Positions 11,861 to 15,137 of a stretch of DNA of 64,000 nt are shown in pieces. The first letter of the stretch is position 1. Each line of letters starts with the position of its first letter. Source of the DNA: Alphaproteobacteria bacterium (GTDB lineage Bacteria; Pseudomonadota; Alphaproteobacteria; UBA828). Where the stretch lies: the NCBI GenBank assembly GCA_965214705.1, contig CBDCCI010000001.1, forward strand, positions 192,001 to 256,000. The letters run 5' to 3'. The position numbers were made by a program, and so were the translations under genes. The notes beneath the pieces are model-generated. The model did no database searches and was not told the DNA's origin. It was given only the letters and a program-made list of their open reading frames with translations.

Positions 11861-12556
11861 ATGAACCTCAATCCGACGGAGAAGGAGCGGCTCACCATCT
11901 TCACGGCCGCCCAGCTCGCGCGCGAGCACAAGCGCCGCGGCATCAAGCTGAGCCACCCTGAGGCCCTCGCCTACATCTGCGACGAGCTCCTGATGTGCGC
12001 CCGCGAGGGCCGCTCGCTCAAGGACCTCATGGGCTACGGCGCGGAGATCCTCACGTCGGACGACGTGCTGCCCGGCGTGCCCGAGTTGGTTCCGGTGATT
12101 CACGTGGAAGCGATGTTCCCCGACGGCACCAAGCTCATCACGGTGCATCAGCCGATCCGCCCAGGTAAGGCCAAGAGCGCGCCCGGCCCTCGCGCCGGCG
12201 AGATCATCACCCCCGACGCGGAGATCGAGCTGAACGCGGGCCGGCGAACCGGCTCGGTCTCCGTCACTAACACCGGCGACCGCCCGGTGCAGATCGGCAG
12301 CCACTTCCACTTCTTCGAGGTCAACCGGGCGCTCGAGTTCGACCGGCAGGCGACCTTCGGCATGCGTCTCGACATCCCGTCCGGCACCGCCGTCCGCTTC
12401 GAGCCGGGGCAGGAGAAGCAGGTTGCGCTGGTGGAGTTCGGCGGCCGCGGCCGGGTCAGCGGCTTCAACTCCCTCACCGAGGGCATGATCGACGCGCCTG
12501 CGGTGAAGGAGCAGGCGATCGCCCGCGCCAAGGCGGGCGGCTTCCGGGGAGCGTAG
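11861..12556 (+). CDS. ureAB: Fused urease gamma/beta subunit (divergent)
   Basis: Gamma part [11 protein letters not shown]...[18 protein letters not shown]; beta part [42 protein letters not shown]. Confidence 0.95.
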
Positions 12557-12560
12557 GCAG

Positions 12561-14270
12561 ATGGTGAAAATCGCGCGCGAGACCTATGCCCGCTACTACG
12601 GGCCGACAAAGGGCGACAAGATCAGGCTCGGCGATACCTCGCTGATCGGCGAGATCGAGCACGACCACACCTCTTATGGCGACGAATGCTGGACCGGCGC
12701 CGGCCGCGTGATGCGTGACGGCATGTCTTACGACGCCCACACCTCCGCAGCCGACGGCGCCATCGATATGCTGGTGGAGAACGCCACCGTCATCGACCCC
12801 GTGCTCGGCCTGGTGAAGGCCGACATCGGCATCAAGGACGGCAAGATCGCGGGTGTCGGCAAGGCCGGCAACCCCAACACCCAGGACGGCGTGGACCCCG
12901 ATCTCGTCTGCGGCCCCAACACCACCTACTACCCCGCCGGCGGCCTCATCGTGACGCCGGGCGGCATCGACGTGCACGTCCACTGGATGTCGGCGGAGCA
13001 GTGCAACCACGCGCTGGCGAGCGGGCTTACCACCATGATCGGCGGCACCATGGGGCCGCTCTTCGCCATCGACTGCGGTGGCCCTTGGAACACCTACCGC
13101 ATGCATGAGGCGTCGGAGGCGTGGCCGATAAACTTCGGCTTCTTCGGCCGCGGCTCGTCCCACGATCCCGCGACCGTCGCAGAGCACCTCGACGGCGCCA
13201 TCATCGGCGTCAAGATCCACGAGGACTACGGCGCCATGCCGGCCACCATCGACGCCTGCCTGCGCGCCTCGGCCGAGCATGACTTCCCGGTCCAGATCCA
13301 CACGGACACGCTGAACGAATCGGGCTTCTACGAGGACACGATGGCGGCGATCGCAGGCCGCACCATCCACATGTATCACACGGAAGGCTCCGGCGGCGGC
13401 CATGCACCCGACATCATTCGCTGCAACGGCGAGCCCCACTGCCTGCCGTCCTCGACCAATCCGACCAACCCCTACACGGTCAACGTCTTCGACGAGCAGC
13501 TCGACATGACCATGGCCTGCCACCTGCTGCGCTTCGACCTGCCGGAGGACGTGGCCTTCGCCGAGAGCCGGGTGCGCCACGGCACCATCGCCGCCGAGGA
13601 CGTGCTGCACGATATCGGCTCGGTCTCGATGTTCGGCTCCGACAGCCAGGGCATGGGGCGGATCAACGAGGTGATCACCCGCTGCTGGCAGCTCGCCAGC
13701 AAGATGCGCGACCAGCGTGGGCGGCTACCGGAAGAGACCACCGCCGATGCGGACAACGAGCGCATCAAGCGTTACATCGCGAAGTACACCATCAACCCGG
13801 CGATCGCCTTCGGCATCGATCAGTACGTGGGCTCGCTGGAGCCGGGCAAGATGGCCGACCTCGTCACCTGGAAGCCCGCCTTCTTCGGCATGAAGCCCTT
13901 CGGCGTGATCAAGGGCGGCTTCGTCGCTTGGGGCGCGAGCGGCGATCCCTCGGGCAGCTATTTCCAGACCGAGCCGGTGATCATGCGGCCGCAGTTCGGC
14001 CATCACGGGCGGGCGCCGGCGACGCTGAGCGCCAACTTCGCCCATCGGCGCGCGCTCGACATCGACGTGCAGGGCCGGCTCGGGCTCGCCAAGCCGATCC
14101 TGCCGATCGGGAGCTTCACCAAGCTCACCAAGAAGGACATGCTGCACAACGACGCCTGCCCCGACATCCGCGTCGACTCCCAGACCTTCGAGGTCTTCGT
14201 CGACGGGACGCTCGCGGCCTGCGAGCCGATCGACACGATCACCCTCGGCCAGAACTACCTGCTGCGCTGA
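12561..14270 (+). CDS. ureC: Urease alpha subunit homologue (divergent active-site loops)
   Basis: 569 aa; [58 protein letters not shown]. Confidence 0.95.
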
Positions 14271-14279
14271 GCCCGTCTC

Positions 14280-15137
14280 TTGGCTGCCGCCACCATGCCG
14301 GCCGCCCGGCCCAACGAAGGGCCGCAAGCCGCGCTCCGCTTCGCCCGCGCGCCCGACGGGCGGAGCTACATCGCGCGCCAGCGTGTCGGTTATCCCTTTC
14401 ACATCACCCGGCCGTTCTATCTCGACGAGACACCGGCGGGGGCGCTGACGCTCTATCTCCAGTCGGTCTCCGGCGGCATCTATCAGGGTGAAGACCTCGT
14501 GATGACCTGCGCCGCGGGCGCCGGCAGCGCCGCCCACGTGACCACCCAGGCAGCGACCATCGTGCACCGCATGCCGGCGGCGCCGGCGCGGCAGACGGTC
14601 GCTTTGGAGGCCGCGGACGGCGCGCTGCTCGAATACCTGCCGGACCCGCTGATCATGTTTCCCGGCGCGCGGCTGACCTCTGTGCTGGAGATCGAGGCTG
14701 CGTCGGGCGCCACGGTCATCGCATCCGAGAGCTTTGCGCACCACGACCCCGGCGGCGAGGACCGCCGCTTCGAGAGCTTTGAGGCGGAGATGCGGGTCCG
14801 CGACGAAAGCGGCCGGCTGCTTGCGCTGGAGCGCTACGCCGTGGCCGGCGACCGTCTGGCGGCGGGGCGCGGCCAGATCGCGCGCTGGCCCGCGCAAGGC
14901 AGCTTCGTGGTCGCCCATCGTGGATCTGAATGCGAAGCCATTCTGGCAGCGCTCCGCTCGGCCCTAGCCCCGACGGATGCGTTTTACGGCGGCGCCTCGG
15001 CGCTCCCCAACGAAGCCGGCGTCGGCGTGCGCCTGCTCGCGCGGGACGGTGCCGCGCTGCGTCGCGGGCTGGAGGCGGCGTGGCGCGCGGTGCGGCTCGC
15101 ACTCTACGGTGCTGAACCCGCCCCCCGCCGCAAGTGA
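14280..15137 (+). CDS. ureD: Urease accessory protein UreD
   Basis: YPFHITRPFY, QSVSGGIYQGE, HVTTQAATIVH, LEYLPDPLIMF; directly after ureC; start TTG 14280 or ATG 14295. Confidence 0.88.
   Translation: MAAATMPAARPNEGPQAALRFARAPDGRSYIARQRVGYPFHITRPFYLDETPAGALTLYLQSVSGGIYQGEDLVMTCAAGAGSAAHVTTQAATIVHRMPAAPARQTVALEAADGALLEYLPDPLIMFPGARLTSVLEIEAASGATVIASESFAHHDPGGEDRRFESFEAEMRVRDESGRLLALERYAVAGDRLAAGRGQIARWPAQGSFVVAHRGSECEAILAALRSALAPTDAFYGGASALPNEAGVGVRLLARDGAALRRGLEAAWRAVRLALYGAEPAPRRK

What the first reader, a model, noticed from the sequence alone, without database searches (positions are those of the whole stretch)
11861..15137. Urease homologue with intact di-nickel centre but remodelled substrate pocket: candidate non-urea amidohydrolase
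Seen: the alpha subunit keeps all metal and catalytic residues (H139, H141, K218, H220, H247, H273, C320, H321, D361; Klebsiella aerogenes H134, H136, K217, H219, H246, H272, C319, H320, D360). Normally near-invariant pocket segments differ: GGGTGPAxGTxATTCTPGPW (carrying Ala167) is [16 protein letters not shown], 4 residues shorter; SDSQAMG (Ala363) is SDSQGMG; flap MVCHHL is MACHLL; HIHFICPQQ is [19 protein letters not shown] is [10 protein letters not shown]; GDxNASIPTPQP is [12 protein letters not shown]. Established: Ala167 and Ala363 carbonyls bind the urea NH2 groups. Inference: clustered changes around a conserved metal site suggest a different substrate such as an N-substituted urea, carbamate, thiourea or amide. 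The reference sequence was recalled from memory. This is the best candidate for a new system in the window.
Basis: partly seen in the sequence, partly recalled or inferred. Interest (0 to 1): 0.85.

Follow-up and report, generated by a model that had tools for sequence, protein, structure and literature searches.

The report
Divergent urease paralogue with remodelled pocket loops
This is an intact, conserved gene set for a urease-type nickel enzyme from an unstudied branch of the urease family, whose catalytic residues are all kept while the loops around the urea pocket differ; it most likely still splits urea, though a changed substrate is not ruled out.

Summary
Window 11861-15137 encodes a fused gamma/beta subunit (UreAB), UreC and UreD. 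UreC keeps every metal and catalytic residue.

The signature marks a strongly supported clade (SH-aLRT 100), found only in part of one alphaproteobacterial family, under strong purifying selection (dN/dS 0.03-0.10). That clade nests in the known but biochemically untested fused-ureAB cluster type (ureEF(AB)CGD).

Relatives at 79-84% identity carry ureE-F-AB-C-D-G. In this genome the orthologous ureF, ureE and ureG survive at three other places. Two other divergent urease loci coexist with it, and no UreC here is canonical.

No positive evidence for a non-urea substrate was found. The urea contacts are backbone atoms, Ala167's equivalent is still Ala, and sister subclades sit beside arginase-family and creatininase genes.

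Best reading: a nickel urease isozyme matured in trans (0.55). A changed substrate remains open (about 0.2). The scan has met this lineage before on other DNA.

The parts
11861..12556 (+). ureAB: fused urease gamma/beta subunit (231 aa)
   Evidence: Pfam Urease_gamma on residues 1-99 and Urease_beta on 113-208. NCBIfam NF009671 'bifunctional urease subunit gamma/beta' scores 335.7 bits against a cut-off of 243. It is 63% identical to the second fused ureAB of the same replicon.
12561..14270 (+). ureC: urease alpha (catalytic) subunit, 569 aa. All di-nickel ligands and catalytic residues are kept; the pocket loop is 4 aa shorter; flap CHLL; SDSQG
   Evidence: TIGR01792 scores 730.9 against 680. 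Motifs and residue positions. AlphaFold model pLDDT 91.6, pTM 0.94. It superposes on solved ureases at TM 0.97 and rmsd 1.3-1.4 A. dN/dS is 0.025-0.095 against 9 congeners.
14280..15137 (+). ureD: urease accessory (scaffold) protein, 285 aa
   Evidence: Pfam UreD 132.8 bits, profile positions 1-199 of 201. No NCBIfam match. It is 49-53% identical to the UreD of the ureE-F-AB-C-D-G clusters of marine relatives.
11736..11860 (.). Short divergent intergenic region between the curA-like reductase gene (minus strand) and ureAB; the regulatory signals are unknown
   Evidence: Sequence read. The sigma-70 and terminator scan found nothing between 11500 and 15600. The left limit assumes the reductase starts at the Met just before its Pfam domain; this is an inference.

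Best explanation
The locus encodes the structural subunits and the UreD scaffold of a nickel-dependent urease isozyme. It belongs to a distinct subclade of the fused gamma/beta urease lineage (the ureEF(AB)CGD type).

Mechanism, inferred by homology and not shown here:
- UreAB and UreC assemble into the usual (gamma-beta/alpha)3 enzyme.
- Lys218 is carbamylated, and two Ni ions are bound by H139, H141, K218*, H247, H273 and D361.
- Nickel is delivered by the local UreD together with UreF (genome contig C2, 95315-96019) and UreE-UreG (contig C3, 204431-205650). These are the dispersed remains of an ancestral ureE-F-AB-C-D-G operon.
- Urea binds through its O atom to Ni1 and H220, and through an N atom to Ni2. 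The amide groups are held by the backbone carbonyls of A169, G364 and G278.
- The flap (C320, H321) closes, and the bridging hydroxide attacks to give ammonia and carbamate.

The remodelled loops and flap would then tune kinetics, gating or regulation relative to the two other urease paralogues of the same genome, rather than change the reaction.
For: Shown here:
- Family membership is above the curated cut-offs.
- All ligands and catalytic residues are kept.
- The fold superposes on solved ureases at TM 0.97 and rmsd 1.3-1.4 A.
- dN/dS is 0.025-0.095 against 9 of 9 congeners compared.
- Six of 10 relatives at 79-84% identity show the complete ureE-F-AB-C-D-G order with identical pocket motifs. 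The other 4 are cut by contig ends and are consistent with that order.
- The genome's orphan ureG, ureE and ureF are the best matches of those cluster genes: 76-82%, 61-66% and 49-52% identity, against 53-55% for ureG and about 30% for the few ureE/ureF matches of the other (C1) set.
- UreG on C3 keeps the P-loop and the CPH motif.
- That orphan ureG is retained intact and far from ureC in 5 of 5 relatives searched.
- Context of sister subclades: L042 lies beside two arginase-family genes, and L044 beside a creatininase-family gene. The ure2-main clade lies beside an AmiR/ANTAR regulator, a UrtA-like ABC importer (403 bits, below the 492.75 cut-off) and HupE/UreJ.
- Hyphomicrobium sp. GJ21 has a ure2-main UreC as its only UreC.
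- The urea contacts that differ are backbone carbonyls (PMC7433671 passages).
- Short contigs of 4 RNA libraries cover the locus at 90-99% identity, in 28 of 30 bins for X15. These are contigs only, so transcription is not proven.
Against: - No member of the whole fused-ureAB superclade has published biochemistry that I could find.
- Segments that are invariant in 13 of 13 canonical UreC are replaced. Fixed differences are about twice as frequent next to catalytic residues as expected.
- Three divergent UreC paralogues are kept side by side across the genus and in marine relatives. That pattern argues for some functional difference between them.
- No urea transporter or urea-producing gene is linked to the window-type cluster itself.
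- The neighbouring genes of sister subclades are suggestive only: their NCBIfam scores are below the equivalog cut-offs.
Confidence: 0.55

Rival explanations
1. Changed substrate. The window-type enzyme is a di-nickel amidohydrolase specialised for a urea analogue or small amide (for example an N-substituted urea, hydroxyurea, formamide, semicarbazide or a carbamate). The three paralogues of this lineage would then divide different substrates among them.
For: The clade-specific signature lies in pocket and flap segments that are invariant in 13 of 13 canonical UreC. Ala to Gly at the Ala366 (S. pasteurii) equivalent removes a C-beta that the review describes as in van der Waals contact at the Ni2 side. 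The loop is shortened, the flap has His to Leu and Asp to Arg, and fixed differences are enriched near catalytic residues. The sister subclades each carry a different pocket motif while keeping the ligands, which looks like a radiation of specificities. Three paralogues are retained together.
Against: Every side chain known to act on urea is kept, and the contacts that changed are backbone atoms. No substrate-specific neighbour is conserved. Sister subclades sit beside urea-generating gene families. Most of the pocket changes are shared with the large ure2-main clade, which is linked to a UrtA-like importer. The window-specific changes are not significantly enriched near the site (P = 0.07).
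Confidence: 0.2
2. Different metal or maturation route. The enzyme is loaded with a metal other than nickel, or without the GTPase machinery, as in the iron urease UreA2B2 of Helicobacter mustelae. It would serve when nickel is scarce.
For: In this genus ureE, ureF and ureG are not beside the structural genes (15 of 15 close loci). The orphan UreE lacks the His-rich tail that the C1 UreE has. A second window-type copy in genome G047 stands alone as ureAB-ureC.
Against: UreD is kept in the operon. The matching ureE, ureF and ureG are kept intact elsewhere in the genome and in relatives. Relatives at 79-84% identity with the same pocket have the full chaperone set in the operon. The ligands are identical to those of nickel ureases.
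Confidence: 0.1
3. Decaying or non-catalytic remnant of a broken operon.
For: The operon has lost ureE, ureF and ureG from its neighbourhood.
Against: dN/dS is 0.025-0.095. UreC is the most conserved gene of the locus (93-100% identity, against 70-94% for ureD) and has no stops. RNA-library contigs cover the locus.
Confidence: 0.03

Closest known systems
Fused-ureAB urease clusters of the type ureEF(AB)CGD (Bradyrhizobium sp. BTAi1 Bbta_1962 and Bbta_4442; Pseudomonas syringae B728a Psyr_2197), described as a 'third structure' in Contreras-Rodriguez et al. 2008, PMC2492869 (passages read); NCBIfam NF009671
   Same: Both have a fused gamma/beta subunit. UreC falls in the same 36-row clade (SH-aLRT 99), which includes a P. 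syringae protein (P0067). They share SDSQGMG and a pocket loop shortened by 3-4 residues.
   Different: The window clade is a separate subclade (SH-aLRT 100) with its own motifs: [12 protein letters not shown][AS]CHLLR and GAGRVMRDG. In its relatives the gene order is ...C-D-G rather than ...C-G-D, and in this genus only AB-C-D remain together. No AmiR, UrtA-like importer or HupE/UreJ is linked (against 43).
Canonical nickel ureases (K. aerogenes 2kau/1ejw, S. pasteurii 4ubp/5a6t, H. pylori 1e9z, jack bean 3la4)
   Same: Identity is 48-52%, TM 0.97, rmsd 1.3-1.4 A. The metal ligands, carbamylated Lys, and the equivalents of His219, Asp221, Cys319, His320 and Arg336 are identical. Both depend on UreD, UreE, UreF and UreG homologues.
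   Different: Six near-invariant segments are replaced. The loop carrying the Ala170 (S. pasteurii) equivalent is 4 residues shorter. Ala366 becomes Gly. The second flap His becomes Leu and the flap Asp becomes Arg.
Accessory-less ure(AB)C pairs of Streptomyces (SCO5525/SCO5526) and the iron urease UreA2B2 of Helicobacter mustelae (3qga)
   Same: The structural genes stand without a full chaperone set beside them. The Streptomyces pair also has a fused gamma/beta subunit (PMC2492869 passages).
   Different: Here UreD is in the operon, and the matching ureE, ureF and ureG are kept elsewhere. 3qga_C scores like any other solved urease against the query (595.7 bits). The actinobacterial row tested (L070) falls outside the 36-row clade. 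The Streptomyces proteins themselves were not placed in a tree here.

Membership tests
Urease alpha subunit (EC 3.5.1.5; TIGR01792, PF00449 + PF01979) | Sequence-model score above the curated cut-off | tested here: met
   TIGR01792 scores 730.9 bits against 680; NF009686 scores 783.3 against 354.
Urease alpha subunit (EC 3.5.1.5; TIGR01792, PF00449 + PF01979) | Di-nickel ligands (2 His, carbamylated Lys, 2 His, Asp), plus the catalytic His, Asp and Arg and the flap Cys-His | tested here: met
   H139, H141, K218, H247, H273, D361; H220, D222, R337; C320-H321.
Urease alpha subunit (EC 3.5.1.5; TIGR01792, PF00449 + PF01979) | The near-invariant urea-pocket loops of characterised ureases (GGGTGPAxGTxATTCTPG, SDSQAMG, MVCHHL) | tested here: not met
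   All 13 of 13 canonical UreC carry them. The window has [16 protein letters not shown] (4 residues shorter), SDSQGMG and MACHLL. The backbone positions A169, G278 and G364 still exist, so this is a difference in sequence. A difference in geometry was not shown.
Urease alpha subunit (EC 3.5.1.5; TIGR01792, PF00449 + PF01979) | Urease fold | tested here: met
   Model pLDDT 91.6. Ranks 1-39 of the Foldseek PDB search are all ureases, at TM 0.92-0.98. The next hit is allantoinase at TM 0.44.
Urease alpha subunit (EC 3.5.1.5; TIGR01792, PF00449 + PF01979) | Hydrolysis of urea | not testable with these tools
   This needs an enzyme assay. No published assay of any member of the fused-ureAB superclade was found.
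Urease system (structural subunits plus UreD/E/F/G maturation) | Gamma and beta subunits and the four accessory proteins are encoded | tested here: met
   ureAB and ureD are in the window. ureF lies at C2:95315-96019, and ureE and ureG at C3:204431-205650. Their orthology to the operon genes of relatives is shown. They are dispersed, not in one operon.
Fused-ureAB cluster type ureEF(AB)CGD (PMC2492869; NF009671) | Fused ureA-ureB gene, and UreC grouping with that clade | tested here: met
   NF009671 scores 335.7 against 243. The 36-row clade has SH-aLRT 99.
Fused-ureAB cluster type ureEF(AB)CGD (PMC2492869; NF009671) | Gene order ureE-ureF-(AB)-C-G-D in one cluster | tested here: not met
   The window has AB-C-D only. 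Relatives at 79-84% identity have E-F-AB-C-D-G, with D before G.
Iron urease UreA2B2 type (H. mustelae) | Nickel- and chaperone-independent activation | not testable with these tools
   The only indirect evidence is that the chaperone genes are retained, which argues against membership.

The most novel reading that the evidence does not exclude
The fused-ureAB branch of the urease family has radiated into di-nickel amidohydrolases with different small-molecule substrates. The window-type enzyme ([11 protein letters not shown] / CHLL / SDSQG pocket) would hydrolyse a urea analogue or small amide rather than urea. The conserved triad of non-canonical 'ureases' in these marine and sponge-associated Alphaproteobacteria would then be three enzymes for three nitrogen compounds, sharing two sets of nickel chaperones.
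Probability: 0.2. Interest if true: 0.8.

Novelty: new variant of a known kind. Interest (0 to 1): 0.45.

Why it matters
Urease is one of the most conserved and best studied metalloenzymes, and ureC is used as a marker gene for urea turnover in environmental surveys. Here a whole bacterial family keeps three urease-type loci, none with the canonical pocket motifs, and one of them (this finding) defines its own clade.

If these enzymes all split urea, they show how much the supposedly invariant pocket loops and the flap can vary, and that the nickel chaperones can serve two structural loci in trans. If one of them has a different substrate, it would be the first non-urea enzyme of the urease family proper, and ureC-based surveys would over-count urea use.

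Either way the lineage is untested biochemically, and the question is directly testable by expression.

Tried and rejected
- The idea that the C1 paralogue lacks a nickel ligand ('GGGNAPD') was rejected on recounting. The ligand His is the one in 'YHxEG' (window H273). The replaced His (window H281) is a near-invariant non-ligand residue.
- A sigma-70 promoter and terminator scan of 11500-15600 found nothing. Reading the upstream region by eye gave no convincing sigma-54 site.
- A bootstrap ('careful') tree did not finish in two 300-second runs on one CPU. Only quick trees with SH-aLRT support are reported.
- A 3D test of clustering around the metal site could not be done, because the model's coordinates are not exposed to scripts. 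A sequence-distance proxy was used instead.
- The 50%-identity representative library collapsed the family into a few clusters, so it was of little use for the close phylogeny.
- Flanking genes of the window-type clusters gave no conserved transporter or substrate-specific enzyme. An ornithine-cyclodeaminase-family gene lies downstream in 4 of the 6 marine loci whose flanks were scanned, but in convergent orientation, so it is read as synteny.
- Seven literature searches found no biochemistry for this lineage. PMC13209695 turned out to concern ordinary ureABC.
- RNA-library contigs show presence only. DNA carry-over is not excluded, and parts without cover mean nothing.
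Full report
WHAT IS THERE. Window 11861-15137 holds three co-directional, tightly spaced genes:
- ureAB, 11861-12556, 231 aa;
- ureC, 12561-14270, 569 aa;
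- ureD, 14280-15137, 285 aa.

Pfam finds Urease_gamma plus Urease_beta in the first protein, Urease_alpha plus Amidohydro_1 in the second and UreD in the third. NCBIfam places UreAB in NF009671 ('bifunctional urease subunit gamma/beta', 335.7 bits against a cut-off of 243). It places UreC above the equivalog cut-off of TIGR01792 (730.9 against 680). Base composition and third-position GC match the surrounding genes.

I compared the six variant segments with tool-derived references. These were HMMER alignments to jack bean (3la4) and H. pylori (8hc1, 6qsu) urease, and 13 canonical UreC taken from public genomes (L076-L090). All 13 canonical sequences carry GGGTGPAxGTxATTCTPG, MVCHHL, SSDSQAMG and GDPNASIPT. 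The window has [16 protein letters not shown] (4 residues shorter), MACHLL, SDSQGMG and [12 protein letters not shown], and also HVHWMSAEQ and [10 protein letters not shown].

One detail needs correcting. The Ala aligned with the urea-contacting Ala of the loop is retained (A169 in AIDC). The deletion lies beside it.

In S. pasteurii urease the backbone carbonyls of Ala170 and Ala366 hold the Ni2-bound urea nitrogen, and those of Gly280 and Ala366 hold the distal nitrogen. The same passages make clear that these are main-chain contacts. By offset from the alignments, the window equivalents are A169, G364 and G278.

IS THE CLUSTERING REAL? There are 67 alignment columns (64 numbered positions) fixed for one residue in the canonical set and for another in the window clade. 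Thirteen of the 64 lie within +-3 residues of a catalytic or ligand residue, against 6.5 expected (P = 0.007). Eighteen lie within +-5, against 10.1 expected (P = 0.006).

For the 37 differences that also separate the window clade from its large sister clade, the enrichment is not significant (7 against 3.8, P = 0.07). The remodelling near the site is therefore mostly a property of the whole fused-ureAB branch.

THE FOLD IS A UREASE. An AlphaFold2 model built on a 58-sequence alignment has mean pLDDT 91.6 and pTM 0.94. Foldseek ranks 1-39 are all solved ureases (K. aerogenes, jack bean, H. pylori, S. pasteurii, Y. enterocolitica, H. mustelae, Ureaplasma parvum). Identity to them is 44-52% (48-52% for all but Ureaplasma parvum), with TM about 0.97 and rmsd 1.3-1.4 A for the best of them. 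The next fold is allantoinase at TM 0.44.

PHYLOGENY: A SEPARATE CLADE INSIDE A KNOWN BUT UNTESTED BRANCH. A scan of one genome per species returned 78 loci. In 26 of 26 sequences at 79-100% identity, the window included, the same signature is present: [12 protein letters not shown][AS][14 protein letters not shown] and FGSDSQGMG.

In quick IQ-TREE trees the window clade has SH-aLRT 100 (59 rows; 44 rows). It lies within a 23-row clade (SH-aLRT 100) of further subclades. Each subclade has its own pocket motif while keeping the ligands:
- MAIDS with flap VAHRLN;
- FAIDS with flap TAHQMN;
- FGVDS with flap TVHHLS;
- FDVSC with flap LAHFLN.

This 23-row clade is sister to a 13-row clade that I call 'ure2-main' (PITVGIDCGG, MVCHHL). 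It contains proteins of Pseudomonas syringae, Aminobacter, Labrys, Hyphomicrobium and Methylophaga. The two together form a 36-row clade (SH-aLRT 99), with canonical ureases outside. A bootstrap tree did not finish.

The cluster type was described in 2008 as a 'third structure', ureEF(AB)CGD, in Bradyrhizobium BTAi1 and P. syringae B728a, next to the ure(AB)C-only pairs of Streptomyces (PMC2492869, passages). Seven full-text searches found no enzyme assay of any member. Supplementary files could not be consulted. Earlier notes of this scan describe the same lineage on other DNA, also without biochemistry.

GENE NEIGHBOURHOOD AND THE MISSING CHAPERONES. The 15 closest loci (93-100% identity) all show ureAB-ureC-ureD with no ureE, ureF or ureG within 10 kb. 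Fourteen of the 15 show the same NUDIX and curA-like reductase genes upstream.

Ten loci at 79-84% identity come from marine metagenome-assembled genomes. Six of them show the order ureE-ureF-ureAB-ureC-ureD-ureG. The other four are cut by contig ends and are consistent with that order.

The window's genome has these accessory genes:
- exactly two UreD genes, two UreF genes and two UreG genes;
- one UreE_C match on C1;
- a second UreE-like gene on C3, matched only by the UreE_N model.

One full set sits in a separate cluster on contig C1. The other set is scattered: ureD in the window, ureF at C2:95315-96019, and ureE-ureG at C3:204431-205650. The scattered genes are the best matches of the operon genes of the marine relatives: ureG 76-82%, ureE 61-66%, ureF 49-52% and ureD 49-53% identity. 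The C1 set matches far less well, at 53-55% for ureG and about 30% where its ureE or ureF matched at all.

The orphan UreG keeps its P-loop and CPH motif. It is found intact, and far from the window-type ureC, in 5 of 5 related genomes searched, at 85-94% identity.

I infer that the window locus is a fragment of an ancestral E-F-AB-C-D-G operon, and that its chaperones now act in trans. This is inferred from orthology and was not demonstrated.

THREE PARALOGUES, NONE CANONICAL. The genome has three strong UreC genes:
- the window type;
- a 'C2b' type at C2:92888-94600, 63% identical, arranged as ureF-ureAB-ureC followed by a cytosine-deaminase-like amidohydrolase;
- a 'C1' type at C1:3218080-3219780, 48.5% identical, arranged as ureA, ureB, ureC, ureE, ureF, ureG, ureD, next to hydantoinase A/B genes and a urea-type binding protein that scores below its cut-off.

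All three have SDSQG and a shortened loop.

The same triad recurs elsewhere. All 5 complete congeners searched have it, and the same three types are found in marine relatives.

Among 60 relatives searched, the window type (79% identity or more) was found in:
- 17 of 20 other genomes of the genus (the three without it are 62-92% complete);
- 7 further genomes of four other genera of the family.

It was not found in the other 12 family genomes, in the 5 genomes of the sister family, or in the 19 genomes of other families in the class. The C2b and C1 types are more widespread.

UreC is under strong purifying selection: dN/dS is 0.025-0.095 against 9 of 9 congeners. It is the most conserved gene of the locus.

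WHAT THE CONTEXT SAYS ABOUT THE SUBSTRATE. Around the window-type clusters I found no transporter and no substrate-specific enzyme that is conserved. An ornithine-cyclodeaminase-family gene lies downstream in 4 of 6 marine loci scanned, but in convergent orientation. An acetylornithine-deacetylase gene lies upstream in one locus (TIGR01892, 377.8 bits against 297.7).

The sister subclades give more:
- ure2-main clusters are preceded by an AmiR/ANTAR regulator and a five-gene ABC importer. Its binding protein resembles UrtA (403 bits, below the 492.75 cut-off). The clusters are followed by the nickel permease HupE/UreJ.
- The L042 subclade lies beside two arginase-family genes.
- The L044 subclade lies beside a creatininase-family gene and a hydantoinase B gene.

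Arginase-family enzymes release urea directly. A creatininase-family gene suggests the creatinine-to-creatine route, whose creatinase step also releases urea; this is established biochemistry, recalled and not tested here. Hyphomicrobium sp. GJ21 has a ure2-main UreC as its only UreC.

These points favour urea as the substrate of the wider branch, including subclades whose flaps are more altered than the window's. They are indirect, however, and the scores are below equivalog level.

EXPRESSION AND HABITAT. Near-identical DNA occurs in runs of 12 studies. Several of these runs are labelled sponge metagenome. Short contigs of four metatranscriptome libraries lie on ureAB-ureC-ureD at 90-99% identity, in 28, 22, 16 and 21 of 30 bins. 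These are contigs, not reads. They are compatible with transcription of this locus or of close relatives, but do not prove it.

VERDICT. The metal site is intact, the loops are remodelled and the clade is separate from all characterised ureases, but nothing here points positively to another substrate, and several lines point to a nickel urease.

I rate the readings as follows:
- nickel urease isozyme matured in trans: 0.55;
- changed substrate: 0.2;
- different metal or maturation route: 0.1;
- decay: 0.03;
- the remainder is unassigned.

It is a new variant of a known kind of system. The whole branch remains an open and readily testable biochemical question.

Noticed in passing
Genome contig C1:3215173-3220650 (outside the window; L014): A third urease cluster: ureA, ureB, ureC, ureE, ureF, ureG, ureD. 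Its UreC sits on a very long branch (1.0 changes per site). It keeps all ligands but has Asn in place of the His of GGGHAPD, which is His in 56 of 58 aligned UreC, and its flap reads CHNL. It lies next to hydantoinase A/B genes and a urea-type binding protein that scores below its cut-off. The same variant recurs in marine relatives (L095, L097).
   Followed up: partly
Genome contig C2:91619-96019 (outside the window; L015): The second fused urease locus is ureF-ureAB-ureC followed directly by a cytosine-deaminase-like amidohydrolase. The ureAB-ureC-amidohydrolase unit is kept in 3 of 4 relatives fetched (L098-L100). An IS91-type transposase gene and an integrase gene lie a few kb downstream.
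   Followed up: partly
Genome contig C3:204431-205650 (outside the window; L016): An orphan ureE-ureG pair sits between an acyl-CoA dehydrogenase gene and an AMP-binding enzyme gene. This UreE lacks the His-rich tail of the C1 UreE. The UreG is conserved at 85-94% identity in 5 of 5 relatives searched.
   Followed up: yes
window:15208-15465 (-): A Phd/YefM-type antitoxin gene lies 70 bases from the end of ureD. There is no room for a toxin gene downstream, and a response-regulator gene starts 40 bases upstream, so it looks like an orphan antitoxin. It is present beside ureD in only some congeners (4 of 15 close loci).
   Followed up: no
window:17686-18048 (-) and 18066-18665 (-): Two adjacent ORFs have clearly similar C-terminal halves. 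The first is DUF1499 (Pfam). A DUF1499 gene also lies beside the fused urease genes of locus L069, which may be coincidence.
   Followed up: no
L102 (G047:C19) and L101 (G047:C33): One family member carries two window-type UreC copies, 82% identical to each other. One sits in a full ureE-F-AB-C-D-G cluster. The other is a solitary ureAB-ureC with a slightly different loop (PLFSIDCGGPW).
   Followed up: partly
L040-L043, L044/L046, L066/L068, L069/L072/L073: The sister subclades of the fused-ureAB branch each have their own pocket and flap motifs, and several lack the flap Cys, while the metal ligands are kept. L042 lies beside two arginase-family genes, L044 beside creatininase-family and hydantoinase B genes, and L066 beside an MttB-family methyltransferase gene.
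   Followed up: partly
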